DNA of 26,662 nt from Promethearchaeota archaeon. Lineage in GTDB: Archaea > Asgardarchaeota > Lokiarchaeia > Sigyniarchaeales > SOKP01. The translations under genes were made by a program, and so were the position numbers. Positions 1-20,389 of the stretch are shown here, piece after piece. The stretch covers positions 1-26,662 of the forward strand of contig JAHLWS010000086.1 of the NCBI GenBank assembly GCA_019057795.1, given 5' to 3'. The notes under the pieces were generated by a model. It had not been told where the DNA came from. It did not search any database and saw only the letters and a list, made by a program, of their open reading frames with translations. Each line of letters opens with the position of its first letter. The stretch's first letter is position 1.

Positions 1-189
1 ATTATAAATAATATGGATGATTTATATAAAGATTCTGCTAATATGTATATCTCTATGATAGATATGGGCTTTCTTTCTTATTATAAAATTAAGCCTGAAC
101 CCGTAGAACTATTGTTAAAAGTGATGAGAGAAAGAGGAGAGTCTATCGAATCATTATTAAAAGAATTAAGAGAAAGATTTTGGGAATAA
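1..189 (+). CDS. hypothetical protein, 5'-truncated by window edge
   Basis: Open frame from base 1 (IIINMDDLYKDS...LRERFWE) to TAA at 187-189. Confidence 0.55.
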   Translation: MINNMDDLYKDSANMYISMIDMGFLSYYKIKPEPVELLLKVMRERGESIESLLKELRERFWE

Positions 190-326
190 AAAATATTATT
201 TTAGGTTATAAACGTGGGCAAGCAATATAAGGGTTATAAATGTATCCGGGGAGCTGTAGAATCAAAAATAGAGGATATTTTGGCCTATTCTGAGTGAGTT
301 ATTTAATCAATAAGAGGGTATTAAAA

Positions 327-545
327 ATGAATAAAATTCAAAAGATAATTTTAGCAATTTTTGTTCCAAGTATACTTTACGTGATTGCTCTAGCTATCGC
401 AGAACCTATAACCTGGAGACCTGGAAAGTTCCGTCTTTATAGTTCCAGCGTGATTTTCTACTATGGTTGGCCTGTTTGGCTTGTTTTTTTAATCATCGTT
501 TGTATTTTTGAGTATAAACTATTTAAGGATAAAAAAGAGAAATAA
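327..545 (+). CDS. small two-TM membrane protein
   Basis: ORF 294-545; ATG at 327 follows a GAGGG RBS; two hydrophobic stretches and a basic C-tail. Confidence 0.65.
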   Translation: MNKIQKIILAIFVPSILYVIALAIAEPITWRPGKFRLYSSSVIFYYGWPVWLVFLIIVCIFEYKLFKDKKEK

Positions 546-570
546 AGAGGATTAGAGGAGGGCTAAGAAA

Positions 571-949
571 ATGAAAGCATTTGAAAGAATCTTTCTTTAT
601 ACAATATTAGCAATATTAGTGTTTTATGTGTTCTTGGTAGATGGAAATGTTGAAAGCCAGGGGGTTATTCAGGAGGAAATCAGGGCCAGGAGCATATTAA
701 TTGTGAACGATGCGGGCCAAACCAGTCATTATGTTATGGGCTAGTGAAGACGGTGGGACAATCGGCGTTAGTAATAACAATAATCCCGGCACTCCTGTTG
801 CTCTTATAGGAGCCGATAAAGACGGGGGGTCAATCGGCGTTAGTAATAAAGCTGGCAACCCTGTTGCTGTTTTGACGGTTTACGAAGATGATGATGGACT
901 AATAGAGGTTTAAAACAAGTATGGCGAAAGGACTGGTTTTCTACCCTAG
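571..949 (+). pseudogene. secreted or membrane-anchored beta-repeat protein, frameshifted with a premature stop
   Basis: GAGGAGG RBS then ATG 571 (MKAFERIFLYTILAILVFYVFLVDG...VNDAG). Frame switches near 717 into ORF 710-913 (KPVIMLWASEDGG...). TAA at 911 is followed in frame by NKYGERTGFLP-TAG 949. Internal 72-bp-period repeat CAATCGGCGTTAGTAATAA at 759 and 831. Confidence 0.7.
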
Positions 950-998
950 AACTATAAATGAATGATTTGGTTATTAAATAAAGAAAGGAGGAAATAAA

Positions 999-1199
999 AT
1001 GAGCGAAGCAATTAAAAAAAGAATGGAGAAACTTAAGGGAGAGAAAAATTTGTCCGGTTTTCAACACACACAATTATTATGCTTAGATACTATAATGGAC
1101 AGTTTAGTCAGTATAGCTGATAGCCTTAAAACTATTAACTATGGTATAAGCAAGACAATTAATAAAAAATGGACCGATGATAAAAAAGAAGAAGATTAG
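999..1199 (+). CDS. hypothetical protein
   Basis: AAGGAGG RBS, 66-aa ORF. Confidence 0.65.
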   Translation: MSEAIKKRMEKLKGEKNLSGFQHTQLLCLDTIMDSLVSIADSLKTINYGISKTINKKWTDDKKEED

Positions 1200-1256
1200 A
1201 TAACGGCACACATTAATTATTACAAACAATACAAGCATATAACAGGGGGGCTTAAA

Positions 1257-1625
1257 ATGAAAAATAAAATAATACTCTTTTTAATTTTACTGTTGTTATT
1301 TTCGATTTTTTTAATTAATTATAGTTATCTCCAAGAGGAAGAAAAAGAAGGAATTGATTATTATATATTGGCAAATGACTATTTAGAATTATCTGAAGAA
1401 AATAAATTATTTTATGTTATGGGGTTAATAGATATGGTTTTTTTCCAAATATATTCCTATGATTTCGAATTATATTCTGATATTACTAAAGCAACTGATG
1501 GTATGAATGCAAAACAAATAAAGGCGATTTTTGATAAATACATAGAAGAACATCCGAAAAAATGGCACTTTCCTGCTTCTTTAATTTTTAATGATGTAAT
1601 AATGGAAATCGTTTATGAAAAATAA
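1257..1625 (+). CDS. hypothetical exported protein (signal peptide, helical Rap1a-like motif)
   Basis: N-terminal MKNK plus hydrophobic signal; YVMGLID...YIEEHPKKWHFPAS motif; AGGGGG RBS. Confidence 0.65.
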   Translation: MKNKIILFLILLLLFSIFLINYSYLQEEEKEGIDYYILANDYLELSEENKLFYVMGLIDMVFFQIYSYDFELYSDITKATDGMNAKQIKAIFDKYIEEHPKKWHFPASLIFNDVIMEIVYEK

Positions 1626-2187
1626 AGAAATTATAAAAAACGATATTATATTTATTGAAGCCTGTGTAAATTCTTATGTAGAATTCTTGGGAGACGCCTA
1701 CACATTGGCAAGCTATGAGGTTCACCCTTGGAATTATTGTGGTTATAGGACCATAGACCGATAACAGCAAAGAGGGGAAAAATAATAAAAGATTGGATTA
1801 AGTCCGGAAGGATTAAAGATATAAATAATAAACAAAAAATAATATCATGAACCATAAAAATATTATTTAAAAATGTATTTCCCCCATAGCAGAGCTGCGG
1901 AGTATCTATTTCCCCTAAAACATACTAATTTACTGATAGTGTAACTTTTTATATTCTTTTTTCAATTCTTTGATTTATTACATATTTACTTATTATATCT
2001 TCACTACTAAACTTGCTTACATTATTTACAAAGAATCCATCTGCCCAAAATTCTCTGCCCCCATAGCTGTTTTTTTACTTAGGAAGTTTTTCAAATATCT
2101 TTTTGGTAGTTATACTTTTTATTTGATCGTAGCAGAGTTGCGGGGGAGGGAGGGGGATTAAACCCCAAGAGATTAAAGGGTTTTAAA

Positions 2188-2307
2188 ATGGTAAAGTGTA
2201 AATGTCGAAAGTGAAGAAAAATATGTCACGAATGGGCTCATTCGGATATTTGCCTGAATTGTGGTGGTAAACTAGAAAAGGGTAAACAGAAAAAAATGCT
2301 AGTGTAA
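2188..2307 (+). pseudogene. small zinc-ribbon protein with in-frame TGA at a Cys position
   Basis: MVKCKCRK*RKICHEWAHSDICLNCGGKLEKGKQKKMLV: CxxX and CxxC pairs, TGA at 2212-2214. Confidence 0.55.
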
Positions 2308-2342
2308 ACTTTATTGGGGTAGTTAGAAAAAAATAAATAATT

Positions 2343-2371
2343 TTGACTTTTCTCAAAAAAATGTTTATTAT
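2343..2371 (+). promoter_or_regulatory. sigma70-type promoter
   Basis: TTGACT-N17-TATTAT upstream of ORF 2443. Confidence 0.55.
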
Positions 2372-2442
2372 AATACTACGTACAATTTTTTATTAAGTAT
2401 TACAATGTTTTAGTAAACAATATAATATCTGCAGGAGCTTAT

Positions 2443-2770
2443 ATGGATTCTTATAAAAAAAACAATCCTGAATTAGAGAAATATATCCCGCTAGTTAAAA
2501 CTATCGCTGAAATGTTTGGTAATAACTGCGAAGTCTTAATCCATGATTTTAGTCATCCTCAACATTCTATTGTGGCAATAGAGAATGGCCACGTAACAGG
2601 AAGAAAAATAGGTGACCCCATTACCGATCTTGCCTTATCCGTCTGGAAGAAAAATGGTTATGAGAATAAAAAAACAGACAGAATTGTTAATTACAAAACT
2701 AAATCAAAAGATGGAAAAATATTAAAATCTTCCACGGTTTTTATTAGGAATAATCAAAAAAAGATAAAGG
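2443..2770 (+). pseudogene. YheO-like PAS-domain transcriptional regulator, C-terminal HTH deleted
   Basis: FGNNCEVLIHD...ENGHVTGRKIGDPITD...DGKILKSSTVFIRN is the YheO PAS_6 signature; similarity stops after NQKKI. Confidence 0.85.
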
Positions 2771-2771
2771 G

Positions 2772-3845
2772 TTGGTGGCCGCTGCAGCTTTTGGATTTAT
2801 CGCAGGAGATGCCAAAAGAAGCCTTAGAGTTATAGAAGGTTTAACAGAAGAAGATATAATAGAAGCCAGACTATTAATCAAGCAGAAAAGGATAGAATTA
2901 AGTTTAAAAAGAGATTGTACAGGATTGAATATTGAAGTCACCATATTGACGGATAGAGAAAAAGTGAGAGTTATCATTTTAAACACCCATCTCAATATAA
3001 TAAGTATTGAAAAGATCGATCTAAATAGCCAGTTCAAACCATTTGTTAGAAAAGAACAAAAAGCCAATACCTTCAAGTATCAGATTCAAAAATATACCTT
3101 GGAAGATTTTCTTCGTTTTAGTGACCAAATACCGCTTGAGAAATTATCATTCTTGGAAGATGGAGTCAATATGAACCGGAAGATCGCTCAGGAAGGTATG
3201 ACCATCAAGTTGGGTGTAGGAGTCAAATTAAATGAAATGATCCATGAGGGAATAATGTCGGATAATATTATTACTCGAGCCCAGGTCTTGTGTGCTGCTG
3301 CCGCCGAAGCAAGGATGTCCGGTAGCAAGCTTCCGGTTATGAGTACAGCAGGAAGTGGAAATCATGGTATTACTGTATTTTTAACTGATTTTGCAGTAGC
3401 AGAGAAGAAAAATTTATCTAAAGAAAAATTGATAAGATCTCTTGCTTTATCTAATCTAATTACTTTCTTTATAAAATCATATACTGATACCCTATCAGCG
3501 ATGTGTGGTTGTGGGGTAGCGGCGGGAATAGGAGCAAGTGCCGGGGTAGTATATTTATTAGGCGGAAATAAAGGACAAATTTTAGGGTCCCTATATAATA
3601 TGGTAGGTTCGATTTCTGGCATGATTTGCGATGGGGCTAAAAACGGTTGTGCTTATAAATTAGCTCTTGCCTCAGGATGGGCAGTGCAATCTGCATTGCT
3701 TGCCCTAAAAGGTGCAATCATTAATAATACCGATGGCATTATAGATCCTGATTTTAAGCAATTATTTAAAAATCTGGGTTATGTCTGTGATCCCGGGATG
3801 GTGCCTACAGACCAGGCAATACTAGACGTAATGCTAAAAAAATAA
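2772..3845 (+). pseudogene. L-cysteine desulfidase / serine dehydratase alpha-like protein (YhaM/CyuA, UPF0597), N-terminally truncated
   Basis: Motifs EARMSG..LPVMSTAGSGNHG, LSAMCGC, GMICDGAK.GCA.K; lacks the N-terminal ALGCTEP segment and an RBS. Confidence 0.85.
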
Positions 3846-3924
3846 ATAGAGCACAAAATTGTCTTTATAGGAAAATTTTATACTTGCTTGATGATAAAAT
3901 ATAATAATTAAGGAATGAAAATAT

Positions 3925-4047
3925 ATGGATTACAGAATTGAAAGAGATAGTTTGGGAGAAATTGAGGTTCCTAAAGATAAATTATAGGGAGCGCAAACTC
4001 AGAGAAGTTTCCAAAATTTTAAGATTGGAAAAGGTCGTATGCCTGTT
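3925..4047 (+). pseudogene. fumC: class II fumarate hydratase N-terminal fragment with nonsense codon
   Basis: [39 protein letters not shown]; TAG at 3985 replaces the Trp of WGAQTQRS. Confidence 0.8.
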
Positions 4048-7289: not shown

Positions 7290-7352
7290 AAAAAGTGCAG
7301 TGCTTCCGGATCCTTTCTCTGCTGACGTGGAGAAAATTGGAAGCACTTTTTA

Positions 7353-7474
7353 TATTAAGCCGCATAAAACTCCAGACTCCTGTCTGGAGATGTAGCGGCA
7401 GCCCGAAGGGCTCAAGCTCGTTTTTCGCTTGTAGCCAAAAGATGCCCCCAGCTCCTGCTGGGGGAGTTTCACTA
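7353..7474 (+). mobile_element. non-autonomous IS200/IS605-type miniature element (PATE-like), copy 1
   Basis: 122 bp identical to 12013-12134; subterminal hairpins CTCCAGAC-TCCT-GTCTGGAG and CCCCAGC-TCCT-GCTGGGG; ends ...GTTTCAC. Confidence 0.8.
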
Positions 7475-11842: not shown

Positions 11843-12012
11843 AGAATGAAATTGTTATTAGACAGCCATCGTTCAATTGGTAAGAAGAGTATTATAATAT
11901 ATGTAATATAAAATAGAAAGGAAGGATTAAAGAATGTCAGTGTCAACCTTTTTGGGGTAGTTTCTTTTGGTGAAAAAAATTATTCCGGTTTTGGGTAGAC
12001 CTACCCTTGTTT

Positions 12013-12134
12013 TATTAAGCCGCATAAAACTCCAGACTCCTGTCTGGAGATGTAGCGGCAGCCCGAAGGGCTCAAGCTCGTTTTTCGCTTGTAGCCAAAA
12101 GATGCCCCCAGCTCCTGCTGGGGGAGTTTCACTA
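12013..12134 (+). mobile_element. non-autonomous IS200/IS605-type miniature element, copy 2
   Basis: Identical direct repeat of 7353-7474. Confidence 0.8.
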
Positions 12135-12436
12135 CCACTTAATAAAGTTCGAATTATATATGGCTTATTTAAGTATAAAAAGTAAAATGCTTAGTGAGGA
12201 ATTGTACCTATCAAGGTTCAAGAGTATTTAATGTTCCAGAGGAGAAAAGAAGCGATGTGAATATTGCAGTTCATAAGGTAGCTTATTAACCTAAAGAAAA
12301 TTTAGAATTGGGTCCATAGATTGAGAGAGGGTTAAAAGGTGTAAAATAAATCAATAGTGTTTAAAATTAATATTTAGAGGTTTTATAAAATAAGCTAAAA
12401 ATTATTGTTATTTTCTCTCGATATTTCTTTTTTTAA

Positions 12437-12545
12437 TGTTATAATAATAAGTACAAAAGGGAGTGCGATTTGCCAAAATTACGCTCCCTTTTTATGGCTA
12501 TACCGAAAGATTTAACTTCCGTTTTCCTTTCGGTTTTTTATTTTA
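12437..12545 (+). promoter_or_regulatory. extended -10 promoter followed by two terminator-like hairpins (leader or small RNA upstream of rep gene)
   Basis: TGTTATAAT at 12437-12445; AAAAGGGAGTG...CGCTCCCTTTT (12455-12493); ACCGAAAG...CTTTCGGT plus T-run (12502-12545). Confidence 0.55.
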
Positions 12546-12685
12546 TTAGACTTAAATATATTCTCCGGAAATTATAAAAATACTGCAAAAATCAGTAAAT
12601 CATACTCATCTTAAAACTATTCAGGCCTGGAGGTGATATATAGCGGTTAAACCCTTAATTCATACCACGCCAAAAAAGGGTTTAA

Positions 12686-13735
12686 ATTATATTTAAAAGT
12701 ATAAATGAGTACATAAAATACGAGTATAGTCTAATACCAATTGATAGGGAAAAGAAACCTTATATATATTGGAAGTCCTACCAATATAAAAAAGCAAACA
12801 TAGAAGATATTTTTGGTTGGTATAATAAATTTCGTGATGTAAATATTGGAATAGTTACCGGGAATATAAGTAAGTTAGCGGTTATTGATGTTGACGATCC
12901 TAATCTCTTGCCGGAGTTAAAAGAATATTTACCGGAGATAAAAGAAACAACCAGGGTTAGAACGAGAAGGGGGTATCATTACTATTTCTCTCTCAGTGGC
13001 GAATACGTTAAAAGCACCAACAACTTATTCGGCAAAAGACTTGAATTAAAAAGTAATGGAACCTATGTTGTGGCTCCCCCATCGATAATAAAAGCCCATC
13101 GATATGTTTTTGAAATTCCTCTTAGTGAGATGCTTCCCATACCAAAATTATTAATCAAAAAAGAAAGGGAACTGGCTTTTTGTGTAGAGGATAGAGAGCA
13201 TAAAGTTTTTAAAATACCAAAATATCACGGTCAAAAAGTTGACTGCATACGCCAGATATTAAGTAGGGATTTAGAGGAAGGAGAGAGAAACAACAGCTTA
13301 TTTATTCTCTATAATCTCTTACTCCAAAATAAGAATACGGAAGAATATTCAAAAAAGTTAGTTATTAATAAAAACAAATCATTATCAAAACCCTTAACTG
13401 AATTGGATTTAAAAAAGTTCTGCCGGAAAGCTTATAAGTATGGGTGTAGTGGTATCAGAGATAAGCTTGCTTATATAAAATGTGAGGCTTGCGGGTATAG
13501 GTTTAAGGATGGTAAATTAAAAGATAGTAATATTTTGATTAAAAATATAAGAATTTTGCCGGAATTAAGTAATGCTCAACGCGGAGTAGCTTGTCTTTTG
13601 GGAACCGTTTTTGAGGGTGAATATCCTTCGATAAACAAGATAGCAGAAACAGCGAATATGAATTTTGGAACTGTTAAGCATGCAATTAAAATATTAAAAG
13701 AAATGCTGGTTATCGATGAGGCTTTGTATAACTAA
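12686..13735 (+). CDS. bifunctional DNA primase/polymerase (Prim-Pol, AEP superfamily) with PriCT-like domain, Cys cluster and C-terminal HTH
   Basis: Frame open from 12686: SLIPI..EKKPYIYW, NIGIVTG.ISKLAVIDVD, TRRGYHYYF, YVVAPPS, EGERNNSLF, C...CEAC and terminal HTH. The TTG start at 12908 would omit catalytic motif I. Confidence 0.88.
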   Translation: MIFKSINEYIKYEYSLIPIDREKKPYIYWKSYQYKKANIEDIFGWYNKFRDVNIGIVTGNISKLAVIDVDDPNLLPELKEYLPEIKETTRVRTRRGYHYYFSLSGEYVKSTNNLFGKRLELKSNGTYVVAPPSIIKAHRYVFEIPLSEMLPIPKLLIKKERELAFCVEDREHKVFKIPKYHGQKVDCIRQILSRDLEEGERNNSLFILYNLLLQNKNTEEYSKKLVINKNKSLSKPLTELDLKKFCRKAYKYGCSGIRDKLAYIKCEACGYRFKDGKLKDSNILIKNIRILPELSNAQRGVACLLGTVFEGEYPSINKIAETANMNFGTVKHAIKILKEMLVIDEALYN

Positions 13736-13744
13736 GATTATAAA

Positions 13745-13766
13745 ACCCCTTCAGTTTTTAAGGGGT
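13745..13766 (+). terminator. hairpin after Prim-Pol gene
   Basis: ACCCCTT...AAGGGGT. Confidence 0.45.
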
Positions 13767-14119
13767 GATTTCTATATTTTTCAAGGGTTTTAGCGTAAAA
13801 ATGCGGACTAATATACTAAGGTTTTAGGAATTTATCTCTTTCTTCTATTCTTTTATTTATTGTCTCATTTTTTATCTCTTGTCTTTATGGTATAAACGAA
13901 ATATCCAAAGAAGGATTTTAGAAAGTGATAGAAGCTTTAAAAAATTGAGGTCCCACTCTTTCTCTCTCCTTATAAATTATTACCAGGCCAGGACTCATGC
14001 TTAATTTAGATCTAATTTAATTCACTTTATCTAATCCTGATTTATCAATTCTGGCCACTCTGACTAATCTAATTTACCAGGTAAATTTAATCCACTCCGG
14101 CTATCCCTAATTTTACGAC

Positions 14120-16102
14120 TCAACCACGCGCGGGGCGGGTAGCTTTCCTTCCCCCTTAAATCCCCCCTAAAACCCCCCTCTTATCCCCCTTCTTTTTATT
14201 ATTGCTCCTTGCTTCAAGAGCTACGCCCGCGGGAACGCTCTCAAGCTTAAATGTAGGCTATGTCGCTCTGACGGTCCCGCTTATGCTCCGCTCTGTTCAG
14301 CACCGCAACAAAAAAAAGGTTAGGCTATGATTCATTAGGGGGGAAGCATTAAGGGGGAAGGAAAAACTACGGTCGATTCACCCCCTACTCTACAAGCATA
14401 AGCGCAGGTATTATCGAGACCCTCTCTCCCTTGCCCCGCCCCTGTTTGCGAACCTTTTCGTGCATCTGTCATCGTTTGTGATTTAGTCTTATCCCCTACA
14501 AAAAAGAGATAAAAAAAATAAATGAAAAAAACAAGAGCGGGGATTTTTTTATCTCCCTTTTTCGGTGGCTCTATTTATCGGATTCCATGCAGTTAAGCGA
14601 TAAGTAAAAACATCCAACTAATAAAAAGTTAAAAGAATTGCCTTTTATATATAAACTTTTTATTGTTGTATTTTTTACCTATCGCCAGGAGAAGAGGAGA
14701 GGCAATTCCCTCTCCTGGTAAACAGTAATTTACCAGGAGAAGAATTTGCCAGGAAAAAGCCAAAAGCAATAAGAATAATCACACTCAAAAAAAATAACTA
14801 TATTTTGAGAAAAAGAAAAATATAATTATTTTTTATTGTGTCATTAAAAATCACGAAGGTTAAATATTATGTGATAAGGGAAAATCACCCCCTATCACAT
14901 AATATTATTTTTTTAAAAAAGGGTTTCCGTCTAACTACCAGACAGAAGAACGGGTAATCCCAGGCAATAAGAGAAAAAAATTATTTAAGGTATATATTCT
15001 GGTTTTTTTCTCCTATTGCCTGAAACATTATTTATCGGATTCTTTGCGTTTACGCGATAAGTAAAAAAGACCTCAAAACAAAAAGAAAAACCCTTTTTGG
15101 TTTAAGATTTTTTTACCTATCGCGGGCCCTGTTAAGTGAGTATCTACTGAGCAGGGCAGGGAGAAGACGAACGCTTAAAAGATATATAAGAAGGGAAAAT
15201 CACCCCCTCTTATATATCTTTATTCTGATATAAAATGTGTAATGGTTAGCGAACAGTGGATTAGTCCTATCCCCGGAAAAACAAGATAAAAAGTAAATGA
15301 AGGAATAATTGCAGGAACTTTTTACCTTCATTTTCAGTGGCTAATGTTATCGGATTCTTAATGGTTGGCGATAAGTAAAAACATCCATAAATAAAATATT
15401 AAAAGACCTGTCTGCGTGCGGACACGCACAGGCAGAAGAGAAACATTTTATTTATGTAGTTTTCACCTATCGCCAGGGAAGGATCATCTTTTTTTCTTCT
15501 CTTTGCAATTTCTTCTCCTGGCGTTTGTAGAAGCCAGTGCCGCAAAAAATTCTCCTGCTTAAATTGTTTGCCTGCATTTTTTTGCGGTGCCTGAGTCTTC
15601 TATAAACGCCATCGGTGCCGCACATATAATCTCTTAGGATAGTTTTAGTTTTTTTTATCTGCTCTACCTGGAGTGTACACACGCAGGCAGATAAAAAATA
15701 TTTAAACGTAGAAGTATAGTGAACAGGAACAGGGAGGGAAGGTGGGGAAGCCATCCGATGACTAGAAATAGAGATTTTTCCCTACGATAAGAAGTATCTA
15801 ATTTAGCCCGCCTTTATATTTTTAACCAGGCTAAAAAAGCTTTTTGTTGGTTAAAAATATAATGCTTTTTTTGCTATACATAACAAAGCTTTATCGGATA
15901 AGATATGCATGAAATTATTTCTTGTAGAATGTCCGATAGAGTCTTGTTATGTATTGGCAGACTTTCAAATAAGCTTCTTAGCAAAAAAGCTCTTGGCGGG
16001 CGGTCGTGGGGGTGAGATGACCAGAAGTTATTTACCAAGAAGTCAATAAAAGCAGGTTAACAGATCATTTTAATAAAATACCGAGGGAGAGAGAAAAAGA
16101 GG
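14120..16102 (+). ncRNA. putative large structured non-coding RNA or folded ssDNA region with repeated hairpin modules
   Basis: No credible ORF; dense array of long inverted repeats; three TTATCGGATTC...GCGATAAGTAAAAA...ACCTATCGC modules; two GGGAAAATCACCCC-capped hairpins with different stems. Confidence 0.6.
15981..16102. repeat. cargo-slot left repeat L1
   Basis: About 122-bp imperfect direct repeat of 17152-17273 (TGGCGGGCGGTCGTGG...AGGTTAACAGATCATTT...GAGAGAAAAAGAGG). Confidence 0.9.
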
Positions 16103-16147
16103 CCATCTACAATCGATTTCAATAATTTTCCTAATGATTATTATATT

Positions 16148-16813
16148 CTAAGTGGGGTTACTATTTTTAAATCTCATACCGGATGCAATCATTAATTGCA
16201 ATGTTCTCGATAGATGAGTGTTTTCAACATAAGGAGTATCTTTTTTATTCATAATCTTTAAAATCTTAGCAATCATTTCATCTATTGTGATAACTTTAAG
16301 TTTTATATTTACTTTCTTTTCTTTGAAATAATTCTTAATATCTTTAGAATTCTCAAAATCGCTTTTATCCTTTAATGATCCTTTTGTTATTTTGGTACAT
16401 AATATTACATATTCTAGTTCTATTTCTTTAGTATCAACAACATTTAATTCTTTTCTTAATATTTTCAAGAATGAATTAGTCCATCTATGTATACAAAGTT
16501 CTCTGAATGCACACCAATCATCTTTTCTTCCAGTAGTTTTAGTAGGTTGGTTATTTAAAGCATTCTCCAATGTATTTTTGAATTTTGATATGTTAAAACC
16601 GCCCTGCCACGATTTGCAGCTAACAGTAATAATTTTATTTCTTTCATTAGTATCAATAGTTATTAAATCTATATCAGAATGTACAGAATCATATTTGGCT
16701 ATATATGTTGGTTCTTCTTTTGATGGTCTAAATTTAATATTATGTTTTGTAAAGCAACCAACTTTTTTAGAATAAAAATCTTCTGCAATTTGTTCTAATA
16801 TATCTTCTTTCAT
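16148..16813 (-). CDS. putative PD-(D/E)xK-fold nuclease (restriction-endonuclease-like cargo)
   Basis: MKEDILEQ...HSDIDL...VSCKSWQGG (E..D..SxK variant); ATG at 16813 after GAGGT RBS. Confidence 0.7.
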   Translation of the reverse strand: MKEDILEQIAEDFYSKKVGCFTKHNIKFRPSKEEPTYIAKYDSVHSDIDLITIDTNERNKIITVSCKSWQGGFNISKFKNTLENALNNQPTKTTGRKDDWCAFRELCIHRWTNSFLKILRKELNVVDTKEIELEYVILCTKITKGSLKDKSDFENSKDIKNYFKEKKVNIKLKVITIDEMIAKILKIMNKKDTPYVENTHLSRTLQLMIASGMRFKNSNPT

Positions 16814-16897
16814 TATTACCTCACTTGAAATAATCGAACTACTTCGTTTATGCACGACTCTAGGTGAAATTTCGAAAATTAACCACCAATATTCCTT

Positions 16898-16960
16898 GTG
16901 GCGTATTTTTGTAGATTCTTAGCTTATCATAAACCTATTTTTATAATTCTACAAATAATA
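16898..16960 (-). promoter_or_regulatory. cargo-slot right repeat R1 containing a sigma70 promoter
   Basis: Repeat of 18124-18186; minus strand TTGTAG-N17-TATGAT. Confidence 0.75.
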
Positions 16961-17011
16961 GGGCTGTGATCATAAAATTATAACCGTATAAATCGGTAAA
17001 AATCGGTTAAC

Positions 17012-17090
17012 AAAAAGGGGAATGCTATAAAAATAACATTCCCCGAAAAGATATAAAGAAAAGGAATGCACTACTAAACCTTTTCCCTGC
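17012..17090 (-). ncRNA. putative small RNA of about 80 nt
   Basis: Minus-strand TTGATG-N17-TATATT with extended TG (17125-17097) and intrinsic terminator GGGGAATG...CATTCCCC-TTTTT (17044-17012); no convincing ORF. Confidence 0.5.
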
Positions 17091-17151
17091 ATATCAAATA
17101 TATCACGGGTTTAAGAAAACATCAAACGTTAATTACAATATTCCACGCCTG

Positions 17152-17273
17152 GCAAAAAATGCTCCTGGCGGGCGGTCGTGGTAGAAGCAGATGAGCATAA
17201 GTTTTTACCAGGAAGGCAATCAAAGTAGGTTAACAGATCATTTAATAAAATACTGGGGGGAGAGAAAAAGAGG
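17152..17273. repeat. cargo-slot left repeat L2
   Basis: Imperfect direct repeat of 15981-16102. Confidence 0.9.
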
Positions 17274-17390
17274 TTTCGAAAATAAGGATATCCCCCCAAC
17301 TCTCAAAATAATCATGCCTATAAATAATAATGAGGTTAGTCTGTATGGGCTTCTTCAATTTTTGTATATTTTTTCAAAAGGAATACCTCT

Positions 17391-18029
17391 TCAGTCTTCC
17401 TGCACCCACTTAAGGCTTTCCACGCTTTTCTGGGTGTTATTATAAAGAAGTTCCAATTCGTTACCTTGGGGATACAATTGAGTATCTCGAATTTGAACGC
17501 TAAAAAATGTATCAGTACTCATGGGACCAGAAGGGGAATAGCTGACAAAGCTTACCTGCGTTCTATTATCCTTTTTCCAAGTAAAAACCCGTCCCCCCGG
17601 GTAATCTTGTTGGATTCGTCCGTTGAGATAAAGTTTTTCCAGCGAGACAAGAAATGCCCTCAGCACCGACTTCTCTGACGAATAGTGTTCAAGATTAAAA
17701 GGTCGATCTAAATTGATCACACATTCAACAGCAGTACCATTTATAAAATTGATAGACACAAAAGAAGACGCTTGGTAGTCATGGAGCTCAAAATTGCAAT
17801 TGAAAGAGACCTTATTAGTGAATGGTTTCAGAACCTTAAGAAACTCAGGAGGAATTGCCTGGTTAGATTTCATATCGTCTCTGAAAGCACGAATGTCTTC
17901 AGCAGTAAATAACTCTGCGCCAAAGTCTTTACATTTCTCCAAAACTTGGGCAGTCGATTTCTGCATCAGTTCGCACGCAAAAGGTATATGAAAGAAGTTG
18001 GTTCCTTTTCTATCTATAGATTTATTCAT
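17391..18029 (-). CDS. hypothetical protein (cargo)
   Basis: 212-aa ORF, AGGAG RBS, promoter in repeat R2. Confidence 0.75.
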   Translation of the reverse strand: MNKSIDRKGTNFFHIPFACELMQKSTAQVLEKCKDFGAELFTAEDIRAFRDDMKSNQAIPPEFLKVLKPFTNKVSFNCNFELHDYQASSFVSINFINGTAVECVINLDRPFNLEHYSSEKSVLRAFLVSLEKLYLNGRIQQDYPGGRVFTWKKDNRTQVSFVSYSPSGPMSTDTFFSVQIRDTQLYPQGNELELLYNNTQKSVESLKWVQED

Positions 18030-18123
18030 TTGCTTATTAACTCCTATTTCTGATTATATTTTTTTATTTTTAAGCATAAAATTACCAAATAAAATGGCTT
18101 ATAACTTAAAATAATCTAACTAC

Positions 18124-18186
18124 GTGGTATGTTTTTATAAATTCTTAGATTATCATAAACTAATTATATTAATTCTGCAAATAATA
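18124..18186 (-). promoter_or_regulatory. cargo-slot right repeat R2 containing a sigma70 promoter
   Basis: Repeat of 16898-16960; minus strand TTGCAG-N17-TATGAT. Confidence 0.75.
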
Positions 18187-18337
18187 TTTTTATATTAGTT
18201 AGAACTATTTTTGGCGGGGAAGGGGCCGCTTGTATCGAGGGGGCTCCTTTTTTAGTTTTATAAAATAAGGAGTATTTATAAGGAAATCAAAGGAATAGGA
18301 AGCTTTATACATTATAAAGGGCGATAATGTTCTAATA

Positions 18338-18366
18338 TTGACTATTATATTAAAATATGATAATAT
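18338..18366 (+). promoter_or_regulatory. sigma70 promoter of the DUF1659-DUF2922-lysis operon
   Basis: TTGACT-N17-TAATAT with extended TG. Confidence 0.6.
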
Positions 18367-18449
18367 GAACATATATAACATTTAGCTTTGCTTGATTTAA
18401 AACCCGTCCTCGACCTGATCGGGGATTCTAAAAAAGGAGGTGAAAAATA

Positions 18450-18677
18450 ATGGCAATAGTAGTAACCGTTCCTCGTGATTCATCCTTACAGTTTAGACTG
18501 GTAGTAGGTAGTAATCCGGAAACCGGAGCACCTATCATCAACAGCAAGACCTTTACTAAGATCAAATCAGCTGCTTTAGACCAAGACGTCTATGATACAG
18601 CTAATGCTTTAGTAGGTCTGCAGAAGTACCCTTTAGATGAAATCAGACTTGAAAGAGAATCCCAACTTACTGAATAA
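18450..18677 (+). CDS. DUF1659-family protein
   Basis: SSLQFRLVVG...G.PIINSKTFTKIKSAALDQDVYDTANALVGLQKYPL matches my recollection of the family; AAGGAGGTGA RBS. Confidence 0.8.
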   Translation: MAIVVTVPRDSSLQFRLVVGSNPETGAPIINSKTFTKIKSAALDQDVYDTANALVGLQKYPLDEIRLERESQLTE

Positions 18678-18724
18678 TCACTAATAATTGTAAAACCATA
18701 AACAAAAAAGGAGGTGAAAAATAA

Positions 18725-19000
18725 ATGGCAACCGAATTAGGAGAAGTAACCAGTTATAAAAGACTCTATATGCAGTTTAGGGATAGTGCTGCAAAAACTA
18801 TCAACATCACTTTGAATAATCCTAAAAATTTGGAGGATGGCGATTACGTCGACTTTGCGGCACAAGATGCAGCTATTGAAGGAGTTATGGATACTATAAT
18901 CGCCAAGAATATCTTCCATAATAATGGTAATGACTTAGTGGCTAAGGTCAATGCTCGGATACTTGATTACAAGTCTACTGATGTTATGGATGTTGGCTAG
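18725..19000 (+). CDS. DUF2922-family protein
   Basis: KRLYMQFRD...KTINITLNNPK...IEGVMDTIIAKNIF...LVAKVNARI; AAGGAGGTGA RBS. Confidence 0.8.
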   Translation: MATELGEVTSYKRLYMQFRDSAAKTINITLNNPKNLEDGDYVDFAAQDAAIEGVMDTIIAKNIFHNNGNDLVAKVNARILDYKSTDVMDVG

Positions 19001-19140
19001 TCGTTAGTGAATAGTGAATAGTCGTTAGCCGGAAAAGCGAGAAAGCAAAGAAGTGGGCTAATAGCTAGGAAATAAATTAATATAATATTCTTCCTTGGAG
19101 GGCTCCGCGGACCTTCCCGGGGAGAGAGAAGGAGTAATAC

Positions 19141-19503
19141 ATGTTAGAAGTATTTGTCACTAAATATTTATTAGATTTCGCTCTTGTTTTTCTTGTTGGT
19201 TTGGCCTCTAAATTTATTATCAATAAGTTTGGCCAGGACAGGGCAGACAAAATAAAAGAGGCTATTCTGGCAGCTATGCTTTGGGCAGAAGAAGAGTTGG
19301 GAATAGGGAATGGTGAGGAAAAATGGAAAATTGCCTGGGTCAAATTAATTGAAATATTAAGGAAACAGAAAGTTAGCTTAAAAGAGGGCGAGATTTCCTA
19401 TGTAAAGGATCTTATGAAAGCTACTGTTCCGGAGGTGAACGAAATTATCTATAAGGCTATGCCGGATGTAGTAAGGAACGGTAGGACTTTAAAGTATAAA
19501 TAA
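19141..19503 (+). CDS. phage holin, LL-H-like
   Basis: Single N-terminal TM then A..WAEE...G.G.EK motif; directly upstream of endolysin. Confidence 0.7.
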   Translation: MLEVFVTKYLLDFALVFLVGLASKFIINKFGQDRADKIKEAILAAMLWAEEELGIGNGEEKWKIAWVKLIEILRKQKVSLKEGEISYVKDLMKATVPEVNEIIYKAMPDVVRNGRTLKYK

Positions 19504-19506
19504 ATT

Positions 19507-19884
19507 ATGGATATGATTAATGACATAGAATTAACTGAATATTTTTCTTTATATGAGTTTGATTGCCCCTGCTGCAGGCGGGTTATGTTGTCTCCGGACC
19601 TTTTGGCCAGACTGAATCATTTAAGAAGGGTTATAAATAGGCCGGTATATGTAAATTCCGGTTACCGGTGCAAAGAAGAAAATCATAAGGTCGGGGGAGC
19701 TCCCGGTTCTTATCATCTCCTGGGTATGGCGGTAGATATTCACGCAGGCGATTTTTTACTTTATGATCTTCTCACTTTTGCTCATGAAATGGGATTTAAT
19801 GGTATTGGATATTACGAAAAGAAAAATTTCTTACATCTCGATATTAGGCCTGGACCAAAGCACACTTGGAAAGGAAATAAGTGA
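19507..19884 (+). CDS. peptidase M15A (Zn D-Ala-D-Ala peptidase fold) endolysin
   Basis: FSLYEFDCPC, VNSGYRC..N..VGGA..SYHLLGMAVD, GIGYY...FLHLDIR motifs. Confidence 0.9.
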   Translation: MDMINDIELTEYFSLYEFDCPCCRRVMLSPDLLARLNHLRRVINRPVYVNSGYRCKEENHKVGGAPGSYHLLGMAVDIHAGDFLLYDLLTFAHEMGFNGIGYYEKKNFLHLDIRPGPKHTWKGNK

Positions 19885-19885
19885 A

Positions 19886-20089
19886 TTGGATATTGAATAT
19901 GTACTAAAATTAATAGCAAATAACGGCTTTCCCCTGGTGCTTTCTGTATATTTAGTATGGAAATTAGATTTTTTTATTGCTGAAATAATTAAAAATCAAA
20001 AGGAATTTTCCCATAATGTTACTGCTGAAATCAAAGAAATTAAGGGGGCAATCAATGAATTACGGGTTGATTTTGCTAAAAATCAATAA
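19886..20089 (+). CDS. YvrJ-family small membrane protein (holin-like)
   Basis: IANNGFPLVLSVYLVWKLD plus coiled coil; TTG start at 19886 after AAGGA. Confidence 0.75.
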   Translation: MDIEYVLKLIANNGFPLVLSVYLVWKLDFFIAEIIKNQKEFSHNVTAEIKEIKGAINELRVDFAKNQ

Positions 20090-20389
20090 GCATGTCCTCG
20101 TGAAAACGGGGAACCATTGAAATATAAGGTTTTTGGCGTTTTTGAAAAAAGCTTCTAATTTGGCGTATACGAGGCGTATTTATCCGAACTTAATGAATCA
20201 TACCAGCCACCTTAAAATAAGCGCTAAAAACACGCTTAAATTAGATATTGTTTTTCGTGGTTCCTGGAAATCACTGCTTTTAGCCTTCTTTTCTCTTATA
20301 TACTCTCTATTACTACTATATTCTCCTATTCTCTTCTATATTTACCATATTAACAAAGAAATCCTTAGGATTTAAGGGCTTATATTTAA

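What the first reader, a model, noticed from the sequence alone, without database searches (positions are those of the whole stretch)
14480..15480. Three-copy structured module array with conserved junctions and variable, covarying stems
Seen: three modules of the form ATCCC-[long variable hairpin]-TTATCGGATTC-N11/12-GCGATAAGTAAAAA-[variable hairpin]-TTTT(T/C)ACCTATCGC. TTATCGGATTC lies at 14575, 15032 and 15347, GCGATAAG at 14597, 15054 and 15368, and CCTATCGC at 14678, 15116 and 15466. Modules 1 and 3 also share TTAGTCYTATCCCC (14483, 15261) and TTTCRGTGGCT. The inserts differ in sequence yet stay self-complementary, so structure rather than sequence is conserved. TTATCG can pair with CGATAA as an alternative to the GCGATAAG/CCTATCGC stem, which would be a two-state switch. 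Inference: a modular large ncRNA or ssDNA scaffold with repeated protein-binding or processing units. I cannot match it to a known RNA family.
Basis: partly seen in the sequence, partly recalled or inferred. Interest (0 to 1): 0.85.

Follow-up and report, generated by a model that had tools for sequence, protein, structure and literature searches.

The report
Repeated hairpin RNA modules, Atribacterota island
The three repeats are real copies of a conserved two-hairpin module found in over 100 environmental DNA pieces next to a cell-lysis gene cluster of Atribacterota bacteria. They most likely act as parts of an undescribed non-coding RNA read from the strand opposite to the one first described.

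Summary
Three paralogous modules lie at 14474-14689, 14939-15127 and 15252-15477. Each has a P0/P1 hairpin, a linker and a long P2 hairpin closed by GCGATAAG/CCTATCGC. They occur nowhere else in the 4.95-Mb assembly and match no Rfam family.

I found 193 copies in 108 metagenomic, MAG and single-cell loci, the named ones from Atribacterota. Copies almost always share one orientation and lie upstream of a DUF1659-DUF2922-holin-M15 endolysin cassette. P1 covaries (10 of 16 pairs have changes on both sides; 0 of 500 shuffles reach the observed values).

The base of P2 has a near-invariant A.C on the + strand, which is G.U on the minus strand. The helices are 97% canonical on the minus strand and 80-91% on the plus strand. 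Strand preference flips near 15475, and the conserved 540 nt to the right folds better on the + strand.

Metatranscriptome contigs from two studies cover the region, but the strand is not known. The proposed TTATCG/CGATAA switch is not conserved (23 of 103 copies).

Best reading: these are domains of a new, modular, expressed non-coding RNA locus of a multi-copy island. An ssDNA or cis-terminator role is not excluded. Earlier notes from this scan cover only this same window, not other DNA.

The parts
14474..14689 (-). Module 1 (P0/P1 hairpin, linker, P2 hairpin)
   Evidence: Covariance model R1 scores 158.6 bits, E 1e-30. It folds to -90.6 kcal/mol on the minus strand and -74.4 on the plus strand, with the flank included.
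14939..15127 (-). Module 2. P1 is replaced by an unrelated 20-bp hairpin (CAGGCAATAAGAG.../...CTCCTATTGCCTG).
   Evidence: R1 scores 126.1 bits. The replacement hairpin is inverted repeat I9, 95% complementary. The same subtype occurs in L021, L091 and L113.
15252..15477 (-). Module 3, the canonical copy that directly adjoins the D region
   Evidence: R1 scores 199 bits. With T2 included it folds to -98.6 kcal/mol on the minus strand (z -7.3) and -82.5 on the plus strand (z -4.9).
15272..15337 (-). P1 helix of module 3. Its equivalents are 14500-14561 in module 1 and 14961-15022 in module 2.
   Evidence: 10 of 16 pairs show changes on both sides, for example AU 51 / GC 34 and GC 48 / AU 40.
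15368..15473 (-). P2 helix of module 3. Its equivalents are 14597-14685 and 15054-15123. The lower stem is GCGATAAG/CCTATCGC.
   Evidence: The lower stem is invariant, with A.C on the + strand (G.U on the minus strand) in 102 of 103 copies and in 62 of 68 pattern-independent copies. All 4 counted pairs of the upper stem covary. One copy shows a compensatory pair, GCAATAAG with CCTATTGC.
15347..15367 (-). Linker between P1 and P2 (TTATCGGATTC-N). Its equivalents are 14575-14596 and 15032-15053.
   Evidence: GATTC is conserved in all subtypes. TCGG/TTATCG is not conserved.
14863..14906 (-). T1 hairpin with the apical sequence GGGAAAATCACCCC
   Evidence: Inverted repeat I20. The same A.C position occurs as in T2. 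126 hairpins of this type occur in the loci, with at least three different stem sequences.
15178..15221 (-). T2 hairpin, paralogue of T1, which begins the most conserved unit
   Evidence: Inverted repeat I22. It is more stable on the minus strand in 37 of 37 homologues, by 4.5 kcal/mol.
14701..14750 (.). H1 hairpin after module 1
   Evidence: Inverted repeat I8, 86% complementary. It is conserved in only about 8 loci.
15407..15435 (.). GC-rich palindrome inserted in the apical loop of P2 of module 3
   Evidence: It is absent from 101 of 103 copies and present in the window and L044. Metagenome contigs carry it with other flanks (table 7). It occurs once in this assembly.
15474..16010 (+). D region, about 540 nt of conserved hairpins that fold better on the + strand
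   Evidence: It is 80-90% identical in 38 full units. D1 is more stable on the + strand in 38 of 39 homologues and D5 in 39 of 39. D5 has z -8.0 on the plus strand and -4.3 on the minus strand.
14084..14446 (-). A segment, a GC-rich conserved non-coding block
   Evidence: It is conserved in 50-59 loci, has 46% GC against about 31% around it, and is favoured on the minus strand in sliding windows.
15981..16102 (-). L repeat after the cargo gene, which looks like a terminator on the minus strand (stem CTTGG...CCAAG followed by AGCTTTTTTG)
   Evidence: Direct repeats D4 and D7, with a second copy at 17152-17273. Read from the sequence.
12701..13735 (+). Prim-Pol gene. The listed ORF starts at 12908, but the domain continues upstream in frame.
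   Evidence: Pfam PF09250, E 2.3e-9, covering only profile positions 82-146. The N-terminal motifs can be read in frame from 12701.
18450..19884 (+). DUF1659, DUF2922, holin and M15 endolysin cassette, linked to the modules
   Evidence: Pfam and PHROGs matches. The cassette lies downstream on the same strand wherever contigs are long enough.

Best explanation
The three modules are paralogous copies of a roughly 200-nt structured element. Each has a short closing helix P0 around hairpin P1, then a linker with a conserved GAUUC, then a long hairpin P2. The base of P2 (GCGAUAAG/CCUAUCGC on the + strand) is almost invariant.

The modules belong to a 2.4-kb tract (13735-16148) that is rich in hairpins and has no real ORF. 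The tract lies inside a multi-copy island of Atribacterota, always upstream of a DUF1659-DUF2922-holin-endolysin cassette and often downstream of a Prim-Pol replicase.

I propose that they work as RNA, transcribed from the minus strand. Each module would then read 5'-CU-rich tract-GCGAUAGGU...ACUUAUCGC (P2 with a conserved G.U)-linker-P1-3', followed by a T hairpin. The adjacent D region would be a separate + strand RNA that diverges from about 15475.

The invariant lower P2 stem with its G.U wobble and the linker would be the recognition surface. The variable apical parts are spacers that tolerate insertions. Repetition (1-4 copies, usually about 545 nt apart) suggests a multivalent binding platform for a protein of the island or of the host. 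That protein would regulate the island's replication, cargo or lysis genes.

Shown: the structure, its covariation, its conservation, the strand asymmetry, the genetic linkage and its presence in RNA libraries.

Inferred: that the RNA is the functional form, the transcribed strand, the transcript ends, and any binding partner.
For: Family size and fixed orientation:
- 193 copies occur in 108 loci.
- Orientation is uniform in 63 of 67 multi-copy loci.
- Copies share the orientation of the D unit 136 times against 3.

Covariation:
- 15 pairs have changes on both sides, against 7.8 in shuffles (0 of 500 reach it).
- The covariation score is 0.142, against 0.084 or less for slid partners.
- In P1, 10 of 16 pairs show such changes.

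Strand:
- The helices are 97.7% canonical on the minus strand and 91.2% on the plus strand.
- In 68 copies not chosen by the search pattern, the figures are 97.3% and 80.4%.
- T2, P1 and P2 are more stable on the minus strand in 37-39 of 39 homologues, by 4-10 kcal/mol.
- Composition does not explain this. Shuffle means differ by less than 2 kcal/mol, while the real folds differ by 16.

Not coding:
- No ORF of 50 aa or more lies between 13735 and 15467.
- 1-nt indels occur inside P2.
- The 95-aa ORF at 15467-15754(-) changes frame among homologues.

Expression:
- Contigs of three metatranscriptome runs from two studies cover 14036-14620 and 15128-16135.
- Depth is very uneven, 40 to 3999 within one unit in X3 and 3 to 530 in X4. 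It is flatter in the probable DNA run X1.

Linkage:
- DUF1659 lies 1.6-8.5 kb downstream on the same strand in the long loci.
- It does so in 8 of 8 contigs that carry both a module and DUF1659, across four genomes.
- DUF1659/DUF2922 homologues (SroA/SroB) alter mRNA stability in S. aureus (bioRxiv 10.1101/2022.10.19.512975).
Against: - No strand-specific data exist. All laid runs are contigs, so neither transcription of the minus strand nor transcript ends are shown, and DNA carry-over in the RNA libraries was not controlled with a silent stretch.
- No convincing sigma-70 promoter or canonical intrinsic terminator bounds the modules on either strand.
- At one P2 position, 33 of 103 copies carry the variant that is U.G on the plus strand and A.C on the minus strand.
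- All homologues are 70-90% identical, so many 'independent' changes are inherited, and the lower P2 stem never varies.
- G.T is also the least bad mismatch in DNA, so the asymmetry fits ssDNA as well.
- The binding partner is a guess.
Confidence: 0.5

Rival explanations
1. The modules act at the DNA level. They are hairpins that form on transiently single-stranded DNA, serving as single-strand initiation or priming signals or as origin-associated structures for the island's Prim-Pol replicase. An origin near 15475 would expose the minus strand to the left and the plus strand to the right.
For: - A Prim-Pol gene with a C-terminal Zn-finger-like and DNA-binding-like tail ends at 13735, just upstream.
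- The strand preference flips at about 15475, as the lagging-strand templates of two diverging forks would.
- A conserved mismatch inside a long imperfect hairpin is typical of ssDNA signals. This rests on my own knowledge of ssoA, ssi and attC sites.
Against: - Eight long loci carry the module-D unit with no Prim-Pol within 7-14 kb upstream. Defence-like and other genes sit there instead.
- Iteron-like short repeats next to the rep gene (about 13975-14120) are a more ordinary origin candidate. Forks leaving there would expose the wrong strand over 14100-15475.
- The minus-strand preference ends at about 13900, where the Prim-Pol gene begins. This fits a transcript better than a fork.
- RNA libraries hold the region with uneven depth.
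Confidence: 0.2
2. The tract is transcribed, but the modules act only in cis. They would be stabilising, terminating or insulating hairpins of long untranslated regions between the convergent Prim-Pol gene and the cargo or lysis genes, not a trans-acting RNA.
For: - T1 is followed by a run of seven T on the + strand, and the L repeat is a good minus-strand terminator.
- Terminator-like sites are enriched in the region, 11 against 4.3 expected.
- Modules are followed by different downstream blocks (D, A or another repeat family), as portable cis elements would be.
Against: - Simple terminators do not need a 200-nt two-hairpin architecture with an invariant wobble, a conserved linker and covarying stems kept in 193 copies.
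- Most T-type hairpins lack a U tract on either strand.
- The non-coding tract is conserved at least as well as the flanking genes: 86-91% against 83-85% in L021.
Confidence: 0.13
3. The modules are + strand RNA, as the first reader wrote them. Each would be a leader or riboswitch-like unit with alternative TTATCG/CGATAA pairing that controls the next terminator (T1, T2).
For: - On the + strand the order is T hairpin, module, downstream block.
- T1 looks like a + strand terminator.
- The D region next door does favour the + strand.
- In about a third of copies one P2 position is U.G on the plus strand.
Against: - The alternative pairing is not conserved. TTATCG occurs in 23 of 103 copies, and TTTGATTC replaces it in copies outside the pattern.
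- A near-invariant A.C would sit in the middle of the best-conserved helix.
- The + strand folds are 4-16 kcal/mol weaker in 37-39 of 39 homologues.
Confidence: 0.1
4. The modules are recombination sites, analogous to folded attC sites, that shuffle blocks and cargo within the island.
For: - Structure is conserved more than sequence.
- The order of module and A segment is swapped between the window and L049, L078 and L100.
- P1 subtypes and downstream blocks combine freely.
- Cargo slots lie nearby.
Against: - No recombinase lies in the 8-kb island.
- The stem bases do not carry the R''/R' core (RYYYAAC / GTTRRRY).
- The cargo genes are flanked by the L and promoter repeats, not by modules.
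- Homologous recombination between direct repeats explains the shuffling.
Confidence: 0.05

Closest known systems
Large ornate ncRNAs of phages and prophages (GOLLD, ROOL; also OLE)
   Same: These are long, highly structured non-coding RNAs without a known enzyme activity, carried by mobile elements or prophage-like regions and abundant in environmental RNA. Like them, this locus was found by comparative analysis only.
   Different: No match to any of these Rfam models, even at E 10. Here the architecture is a string of repeated, exchangeable hairpin modules with variable copy number, not one fixed multi-junction fold. The host phylum is Atribacterota, and the two halves prefer opposite strands.
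ToxI-type RNA antitoxins (type III toxin-antitoxin)
   Same: Both are repeated RNA units encoded beside genes that can kill the cell, in loci that sit among defence genes. In ToxI, repetition gives several binding units for one protein.
   Different: ToxI units are about 36-nt near-identical tandem repeats, processed by the adjacent ToxN endoribonuclease. Here the units are about 200 nt, 63-86% alike and 315-457 nt apart. No short tandem array is present and no ToxN-like gene was found.
Single-strand origins and initiation signals (ssoA/ssoU of rolling-circle plasmids, ssi sites)
   Same: Both are 150-200-nt imperfect hairpins with conserved unpaired motifs. Both are active on one strand only and lie near a replication gene.
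   Different: Those belong to rolling-circle replicons with HUH Rep proteins and occur once per replicon. Here the replicase is a Prim-Pol, which is often absent. The modules are repeated, and the ssoA CS-6 motif TAGCG(T/A) is missing from all three window copies.
Phage P4 CI RNA with seqA/seqC, and ColE1 RNA I / RNA II
   Same: Both are structured regulatory RNAs of a primase-encoding satellite or plasmid, with repeated related sequence blocks near the replication region.
   Different: Those act by antisense pairing between defined short blocks. No conserved complementarity between modules and other parts of the island was found. The sizes and folds are unrelated.
REP / MITE-type repeated palindromes
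   Same: Both are repeated hairpin-forming non-coding sequences present in several copies per genome.
   Different: The modules are not dispersed. All three copies in this assembly lie in one locus. In other genomes the copies sit in the same island context, in fixed orientation next to the DUF1659 cassette.

Membership tests
Rfam large ncRNAs (GOLLD, ROOL, OLE, HEARO) and all other Rfam 15 families | Score at or above the family's gathering threshold against its covariance model | tested here: not met
   cmscan of the whole window gives 0 matches at gathering scores. For 13700-16200 at E up to 10, only sub-threshold generic hairpin hits appear (miRNA precursors, leaders), and none of these families.
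REP / MITE dispersed repeats | Many copies scattered over unrelated sites in the genome | tested here: not met
   There are 3 copies, all at 14474-15477 of one contig of the 4.95-Mb assembly. In four other genomes the 1-9 full-length copies each lie on contigs that also carry the DUF1659 cassette wherever the contigs are long enough.
Integron attC sites | R''/R' core sites (RYYYAAC ... GTTRRRY) at the base of the hairpin | tested here: not met
   The stem bases read GCGATAAG and CCTATCGC. Neither core consensus is present.
Integron attC sites | An adjacent IntI-type tyrosine recombinase and gene-attC cassette order | tested here: not met
   No recombinase domain is found in 12350-20375. No ORF of 50 aa or more lies between the modules.
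ssoA-type single-strand origins | Conserved CS-6 motif TAGCG(T/A) and a rolling-circle Rep gene | tested here: not met
   The window copies read TTAAGCGA, TTACGCGA and TTGGCGA. TAGCGA is common in other copies, but at the base of the stem rather than in a terminal loop. The replicase is Prim-Pol.
ssoA-type single-strand origins | Function on single-stranded DNA of one strand | not testable with these tools
   Strand asymmetry is shown, but it cannot separate RNA from ssDNA.
Type III toxin-antitoxin RNA (ToxI-like) | Short (about 34-52 nt) near-identical tandem repeats next to a ToxN/AbiQ-type endoribonuclease | tested here: not met
   Tandem Repeats Finder reports only periods of 11-14 nt with 2-3 copies. 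The modules are 315-457 nt apart and 63-86% alike. No such Pfam or PHROG hit was found.
   GCGATAAG/CCTATCGC is kept. The TTATCG partner is present in 23 of 103 copies and replaced by TTTTCG or TTTGATTC elsewhere, with no change in CGATAA.
Protein-coding gene or small peptide | An open frame kept among homologues | tested here: not met
   The 24-codon frame in module 1 is closed in modules 2 and 3 and in the consensus. 1-nt indels occur within P2. The 95-aa ORF 15467-15754(-) aligns in shifting frames.

The most novel reading that the evidence does not exclude
The 2-4-kb module array, together with the A and D blocks, could be a new class of giant modular regulatory RNA of Atribacterota islands that holds a holin-endolysin cassette in check, in effect an RNA antitoxin to a lysis module. 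Each minus-strand module would display a CU-rich tract next to P2. That tract could mask the purine-rich ribosome-binding region of the holin gene (GGGGAGAGAGAAGGAG), or the modules could titrate the DUF1659/DUF2922 (SroA/SroB-like) RNA-stability proteins. Phage attack or stress that lowers the RNA would then trigger lysis.
Probability: 0.1. Interest if true: 0.85.

Novelty: new variant of a known kind. Interest (0 to 1): 0.68.

Why it matters
Atribacterota are abundant in anoxic sediments and the deep biosphere and are almost uncultured. Nothing is known of their regulatory RNAs or mobile elements.

This locus is a conserved, multi-kilobase, ORF-free, hairpin-rich tract. It is present in several copies per cell, is found in RNA libraries from marine sediment and groundwater, and is tied to a lysis cassette and variable, partly defence-like cargo.

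If the RNA reading holds, it adds a new family to the short list of very large bacterial ncRNAs. Its architecture is unusual: repeated, exchangeable modules, with two halves that prefer opposite strands. It also gives a concrete candidate RNA partner for the DUF1659/DUF2922 protein pair, whose mechanism is unknown. If the ssDNA reading holds, it would instead define the replication signals of a Prim-Pol replicon family.

Tried and rejected
- Rfam at gathering scores and at E up to 10 gave nothing.
- BLASTN of the region against 40 relatives gave only chance low-complexity hits.
- The strict motif in genome contigs gave 19 hits, about the number expected by chance. Only L021 and L027 were true.
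- Viral-contig scans with three patterns gave two chance hits and no true copy, so the island is not in IMG/VR.
- The exact pattern in 399 genomes of the assembly's phylum and model R1 in 134 genomes of its family found none. This says more about the contig's binning than about the element.
- The M20 peptidase neighbour was used to name the host. It was uninformative, with a best hit of 59% to Gudongella.
- The promoter scan found no enrichment and no conserved sigma-70 promoter at the junction. A TGnTATAAA box at 15226-15234 is not conserved, since position 15233 is G in most homologues.
- A pseudoknot between the CCCC flank and the G runs of the P1 loop was rejected, because module 3 itself lacks the G runs.
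- T hairpins as terminators was rejected: most lack a U tract.
- Fixed paralogue identity by position was rejected: P1 subtypes 1-3 all occur next to D.
- A small-peptide reading was rejected.
- An adapter read-through at 16087 in one X4 contig could hint at a + strand RNA 3' end, but the library's strandedness is unknown, so I did not use it.
- Bins without cover in the laid runs (14708-14959) coincide with sequence that is poorly conserved among relatives. They say nothing about expression.
- Literature searches for Atribacteria ncRNA or this element found nothing relevant.
Full report
**Observation.** The window is a whole 26.7-kb contig (C86) of a 4.95-Mb, 87-contig assembly.
- The combined motif TTATCGGATTC-N(8-16)-GCGATAAGTAAAAA occurs three times in the assembly, all here. 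The reversed control gives none.
- GCGATAAGTAAAAA with up to one mismatch gives five hits against 0.04 in shuffles. Two of these are the 3' arms read on the other strand, which shows the P2 inverted repeat directly.
- Each module folds much better than shuffled sequence.
- Rfam has no match at gathering scores. At E up to 10 only generic hairpin hits appear.

**Context in the window.** The modules lie in a 2.4-kb tract (13735-16148) with no ORF of 50 aa or more, apart from a spurious one.
- To the left is a Prim-Pol gene. Its N-terminal motifs continue in frame upstream of the listed start.
- To the right are two non-conserved minus-strand cargo ORFs.
- Beyond them come DUF1659, DUF2922, a holin, an M15 endolysin and a YvrJ-like ORF.
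- BLAST against relatives puts the conserved island at about 12350-20375.

**Relatives.**
- A 20-base pattern scan of metagenome contigs returned more than 120 stretches, where roughly 13 were expected by chance by my estimate. 105 of the loci held carry true copies.
- An HMM of the modules finds 193 copies in 108 loci, with 1-4 copies per locus. Orientation is the same in 63 of 67 multi-copy loci, and matches that of the neighbouring D unit 136 times against 3. The usual spacing is about 545 nt.
- Named carriers are an Atribacteria single-cell genome (SCGC AAA255-G05) and Atribacterota MAGs including Ca. Phoenicimicrobium. Two short contigs binned as Aerophobetes and Patescibacteria also carry copies.
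- In those genomes full-length copies lie on up to six contigs. DUF1659 is present 2-5 times per genome. In all 8 contigs that carry both, DUF1659 lies 1.9-7.5 kb downstream of a module on the same strand. The same holds in the long metagenomic loci.
- Prim-Pol is not obligatory. Eight long loci have other genes upstream, including AbiU2, a Schlafen/AlbA_2 ATPase, a type III restriction subunit and a transposase.
- None of 134 genomes of the assembly's family and none of 399 of its phylum carries the module.
- Two small repeats on this contig occur nowhere else in the assembly.
- The contig is therefore probably an Atribacterota contig binned into the wrong genome.

**Anatomy and conservation.**
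- The most conserved unit is 15161-16010: T2 hairpin, module 3 and the D region. It is 80-90% identical in 38 full copies.
- The second conserved block is the GC-rich A segment, 14084-14446.
- The non-coding tract is conserved at least as well as the flanking genes: 86-91% against 83-85% in L021.
- Other islands carry, between A and T2, a further family of roughly 500-nt repeated non-coding units that this window lacks.
- The order of A and a module is swapped in L049, L078 and L100, and P1 subtypes combine freely with downstream blocks. The tract is therefore a mosaic of exchangeable structured blocks.

**Structure.** On the 103-copy alignment A1, the model is a two-pair closing helix P0, hairpin P1 and the lower and upper parts of P2.
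- 15 pairs have changes on both sides, against 7.8 in shuffles (0 of 500 reach it).
- The covariation score is 0.142, against 0.084 or less for slid partners.
- In P1, 10 of 16 pairs covary. P0 shows C-G 47, U-A 16 and U-G 13.
- The lower P2 stem does not vary. Part of that invariance is forced by my search pattern.
- I therefore examined 68 distinct copies the pattern had not selected. There GCGATAAG/CCTATCGC is still kept, with one compensatory pair (GCAATAAG with CCTATTGC) and a divergent subtype with a fully different upper stem. TCGG of the linker is not kept, but GATTC is.
- 1-nt indels within P2 and closed frames rule out a peptide.
- An apical GC-rich palindrome is inserted in P2 of module 3 and of L044 only, so the tip of P2 tolerates insertions.

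**The switch.** The hexamer that could pair with CGATAA is TTATCG in 23 of 103 copies and TTTTCG in 52. Copies outside the pattern mostly have TTTGATTC. CGATAA never changes. The alternative pairing is therefore not maintained.

**Strand.** P2 has an A.C at its seventh pair in 102 of 103 copies. P1 and the T hairpins have similar A.C positions. On the minus strand these are G.U.
- The same helices are 97.7% canonical on the minus strand and 91.2% on the plus strand. In the pattern-independent set the figures are 97.3% and 80.4%, with G.U in 62 of 68 copies and G-C in 5 at that pair.
- T2, P1 and P2 are more stable on the minus strand in 37-39 of 39 homologues, by 4, 4 and 10 kcal/mol.
- Everything from 15474 to 16050 is more stable on the plus strand, in 26-39 of the 34-39 homologues that could be scored.
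- Composition does not explain this. Shuffle means differ by less than 2 kcal/mol, while the real folds differ by 13-16.
- In the window the minus-strand preference runs from about 13920 to 15420.
- One P2 position goes the other way in a third of copies.

**Expression.** Logan contigs of three metatranscriptome runs cover 14036-14620 and 15128-16135. Two runs are from one marine-sediment study and one is from groundwater.
- Depth is uneven: 40 to 3999 within one unit in X3, and 3 to 530 in X4.
- A run that is probably DNA is flatter.
- One 2.8-kb RNA-library contig appears to span the A segment, a module and part of D, judged from matching depth in two tables.
- Contigs show neither strand nor ends, and I could not lay a silent control. 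This is support, not proof.

**Interpretation.** Several observations together fit best with domains of non-coding RNA:
- covarying and conserved helices;
- fixed orientation;
- a strand asymmetry that switches at one point;
- absence of any coding frame;
- presence in RNA libraries;
- tight linkage to one gene cassette.

On this reading the modules are read from the minus strand, next to a divergent plus-strand D RNA.

A repeated unit with an invariant wobble-bearing stem, a conserved linker and free apical parts looks like a multivalent protein-binding platform. The linked DUF1659/DUF2922 pair is a candidate partner, because its S. aureus homologues SroA/SroB change mRNA stability. That is inference only.

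The same polarity flip would also be produced by hairpins on the lagging-strand templates of two forks leaving an origin near 15475. Three points weigh against this:
- Prim-Pol is frequently absent;
- iteron-like repeats lie elsewhere;
- the minus-strand preference ends where the Prim-Pol gene begins.

It remains the main rival. A purely cis role as UTR hairpins, a plus-strand leader and an attC-like role are less likely, for the reasons given under Rival explanations.

**Comparison and novelty.** The locus works most like the large structured RNAs of mobile elements (GOLLD, ROOL), but it is not a member of any Rfam family. It differs in being built from repeated, exchangeable modules. It fails the defining features of REP/MITE, attC, ssoA and ToxI (see Membership tests). 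I found no paper on it. I rate it a new variant of a known kind, with function unproven.

Noticed in passing
window 1-26662 (contig C86): The contig is probably binned into the wrong genome. Relatives of the island are in Atribacterota single-cell and MAG genomes. None of 134 family or 399 phylum relatives of the assembly has the module. Two small repeats on the contig occur nowhere else in the 4.95-Mb assembly, which has 7.5% contamination.
   Followed up: partly
window 12005-12135 and 7346-7474: A repeat of about 130 bp with two hairpins occurs twice on this contig (98% identical) and at 98% next to the island in metagenome locus L100 (11523-11646), on the other side of the island. It looks like a miniature mobile element and is not part of the island.
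   Followed up: partly
window 15407-15435: A GC-rich palindrome (CCTGTCTGCGTGCGGACACGCACAGGCAG) is inserted in the apical loop of P2 of module 3 and of L044 only. In a cold-seep metagenome run it occurs with several different flanks and a depth of about 1700, so it is a separate small repeat. It occurs once in this assembly.
   Followed up: partly
window 15474-16010: The D region is about 540 nt of very well conserved hairpins (D1 15516-15610, D5 15864-15990) that fold better on the + strand in nearly all homologues, opposite to the modules. After D1, GGTGCCGCA repeats the 5' arm of D1 and could pair with its 3' arm as an alternative structure.
   Followed up: partly
window 14084-14446: The A segment is a GC-rich (46%) conserved non-coding block with C runs that pair with G runs. 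It is present in 50-59 loci, is favoured on the minus strand and has no Rfam match. In L049, L078 and L100 it lies after a module rather than before one.
   Followed up: partly
L045:950-2520, L049:2650-3750, L078:10880-11950, L088:300-850, L105:4620-5620: Other islands carry, between the A segment and T2, one to three copies of a further repeated non-coding unit of about 500 nt (78-94% identical between loci, with no conserved ORF). The window lacks it.
   Followed up: partly
window 15981-16102 and 17152-17273: A repeat follows each minus-strand cargo gene. On the minus strand it forms a stem (CTTGG...CCAAG, or CCTGG...CCAGG in the second copy) followed by AGCTTTTTTG, so it is a likely terminator. 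It would stop cargo transcripts before they enter the D region.
   Followed up: partly
window 12701-12910: The Prim-Pol reading frame is open, and encodes the N-terminal Prim-Pol motifs, for about 70 codons upstream of the first ATG/GTG/TTG. Either the gene uses an unusual start or this copy has lost its start.
   Followed up: no
window 15467-15754 (minus): This 95-aa ORF is not a gene. Its translation is low in complexity and rich in Cys and Arg, and homologous loci align to it in shifting frames.
   Followed up: yes
L076:7938-8618, L130:5845-7155, L139:1066-3972, L045:4799-6508: In islands without Prim-Pol, the genes upstream of the non-coding unit include AbiU2 (HEPN), a Schlafen/AlbA_2 ATPase, a type III restriction subunit and a DDE transposase. 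The neighbourhood is rich in defence genes.
   Followed up: partly
genomes G400-G403 (Atribacterota SAG and MAGs): DUF1659 cassettes occur 2-5 times per partial genome of 1.7-2.2 Mb, so a single cell carries several related copies of this island.
   Followed up: partly
window 13975-14120: Several short direct repeats of the type (A)TCTAAT(T/C)(T/C)A lie between the Prim-Pol gene and the A segment. This is a more ordinary iteron-type origin candidate than the modules.
   Followed up: no
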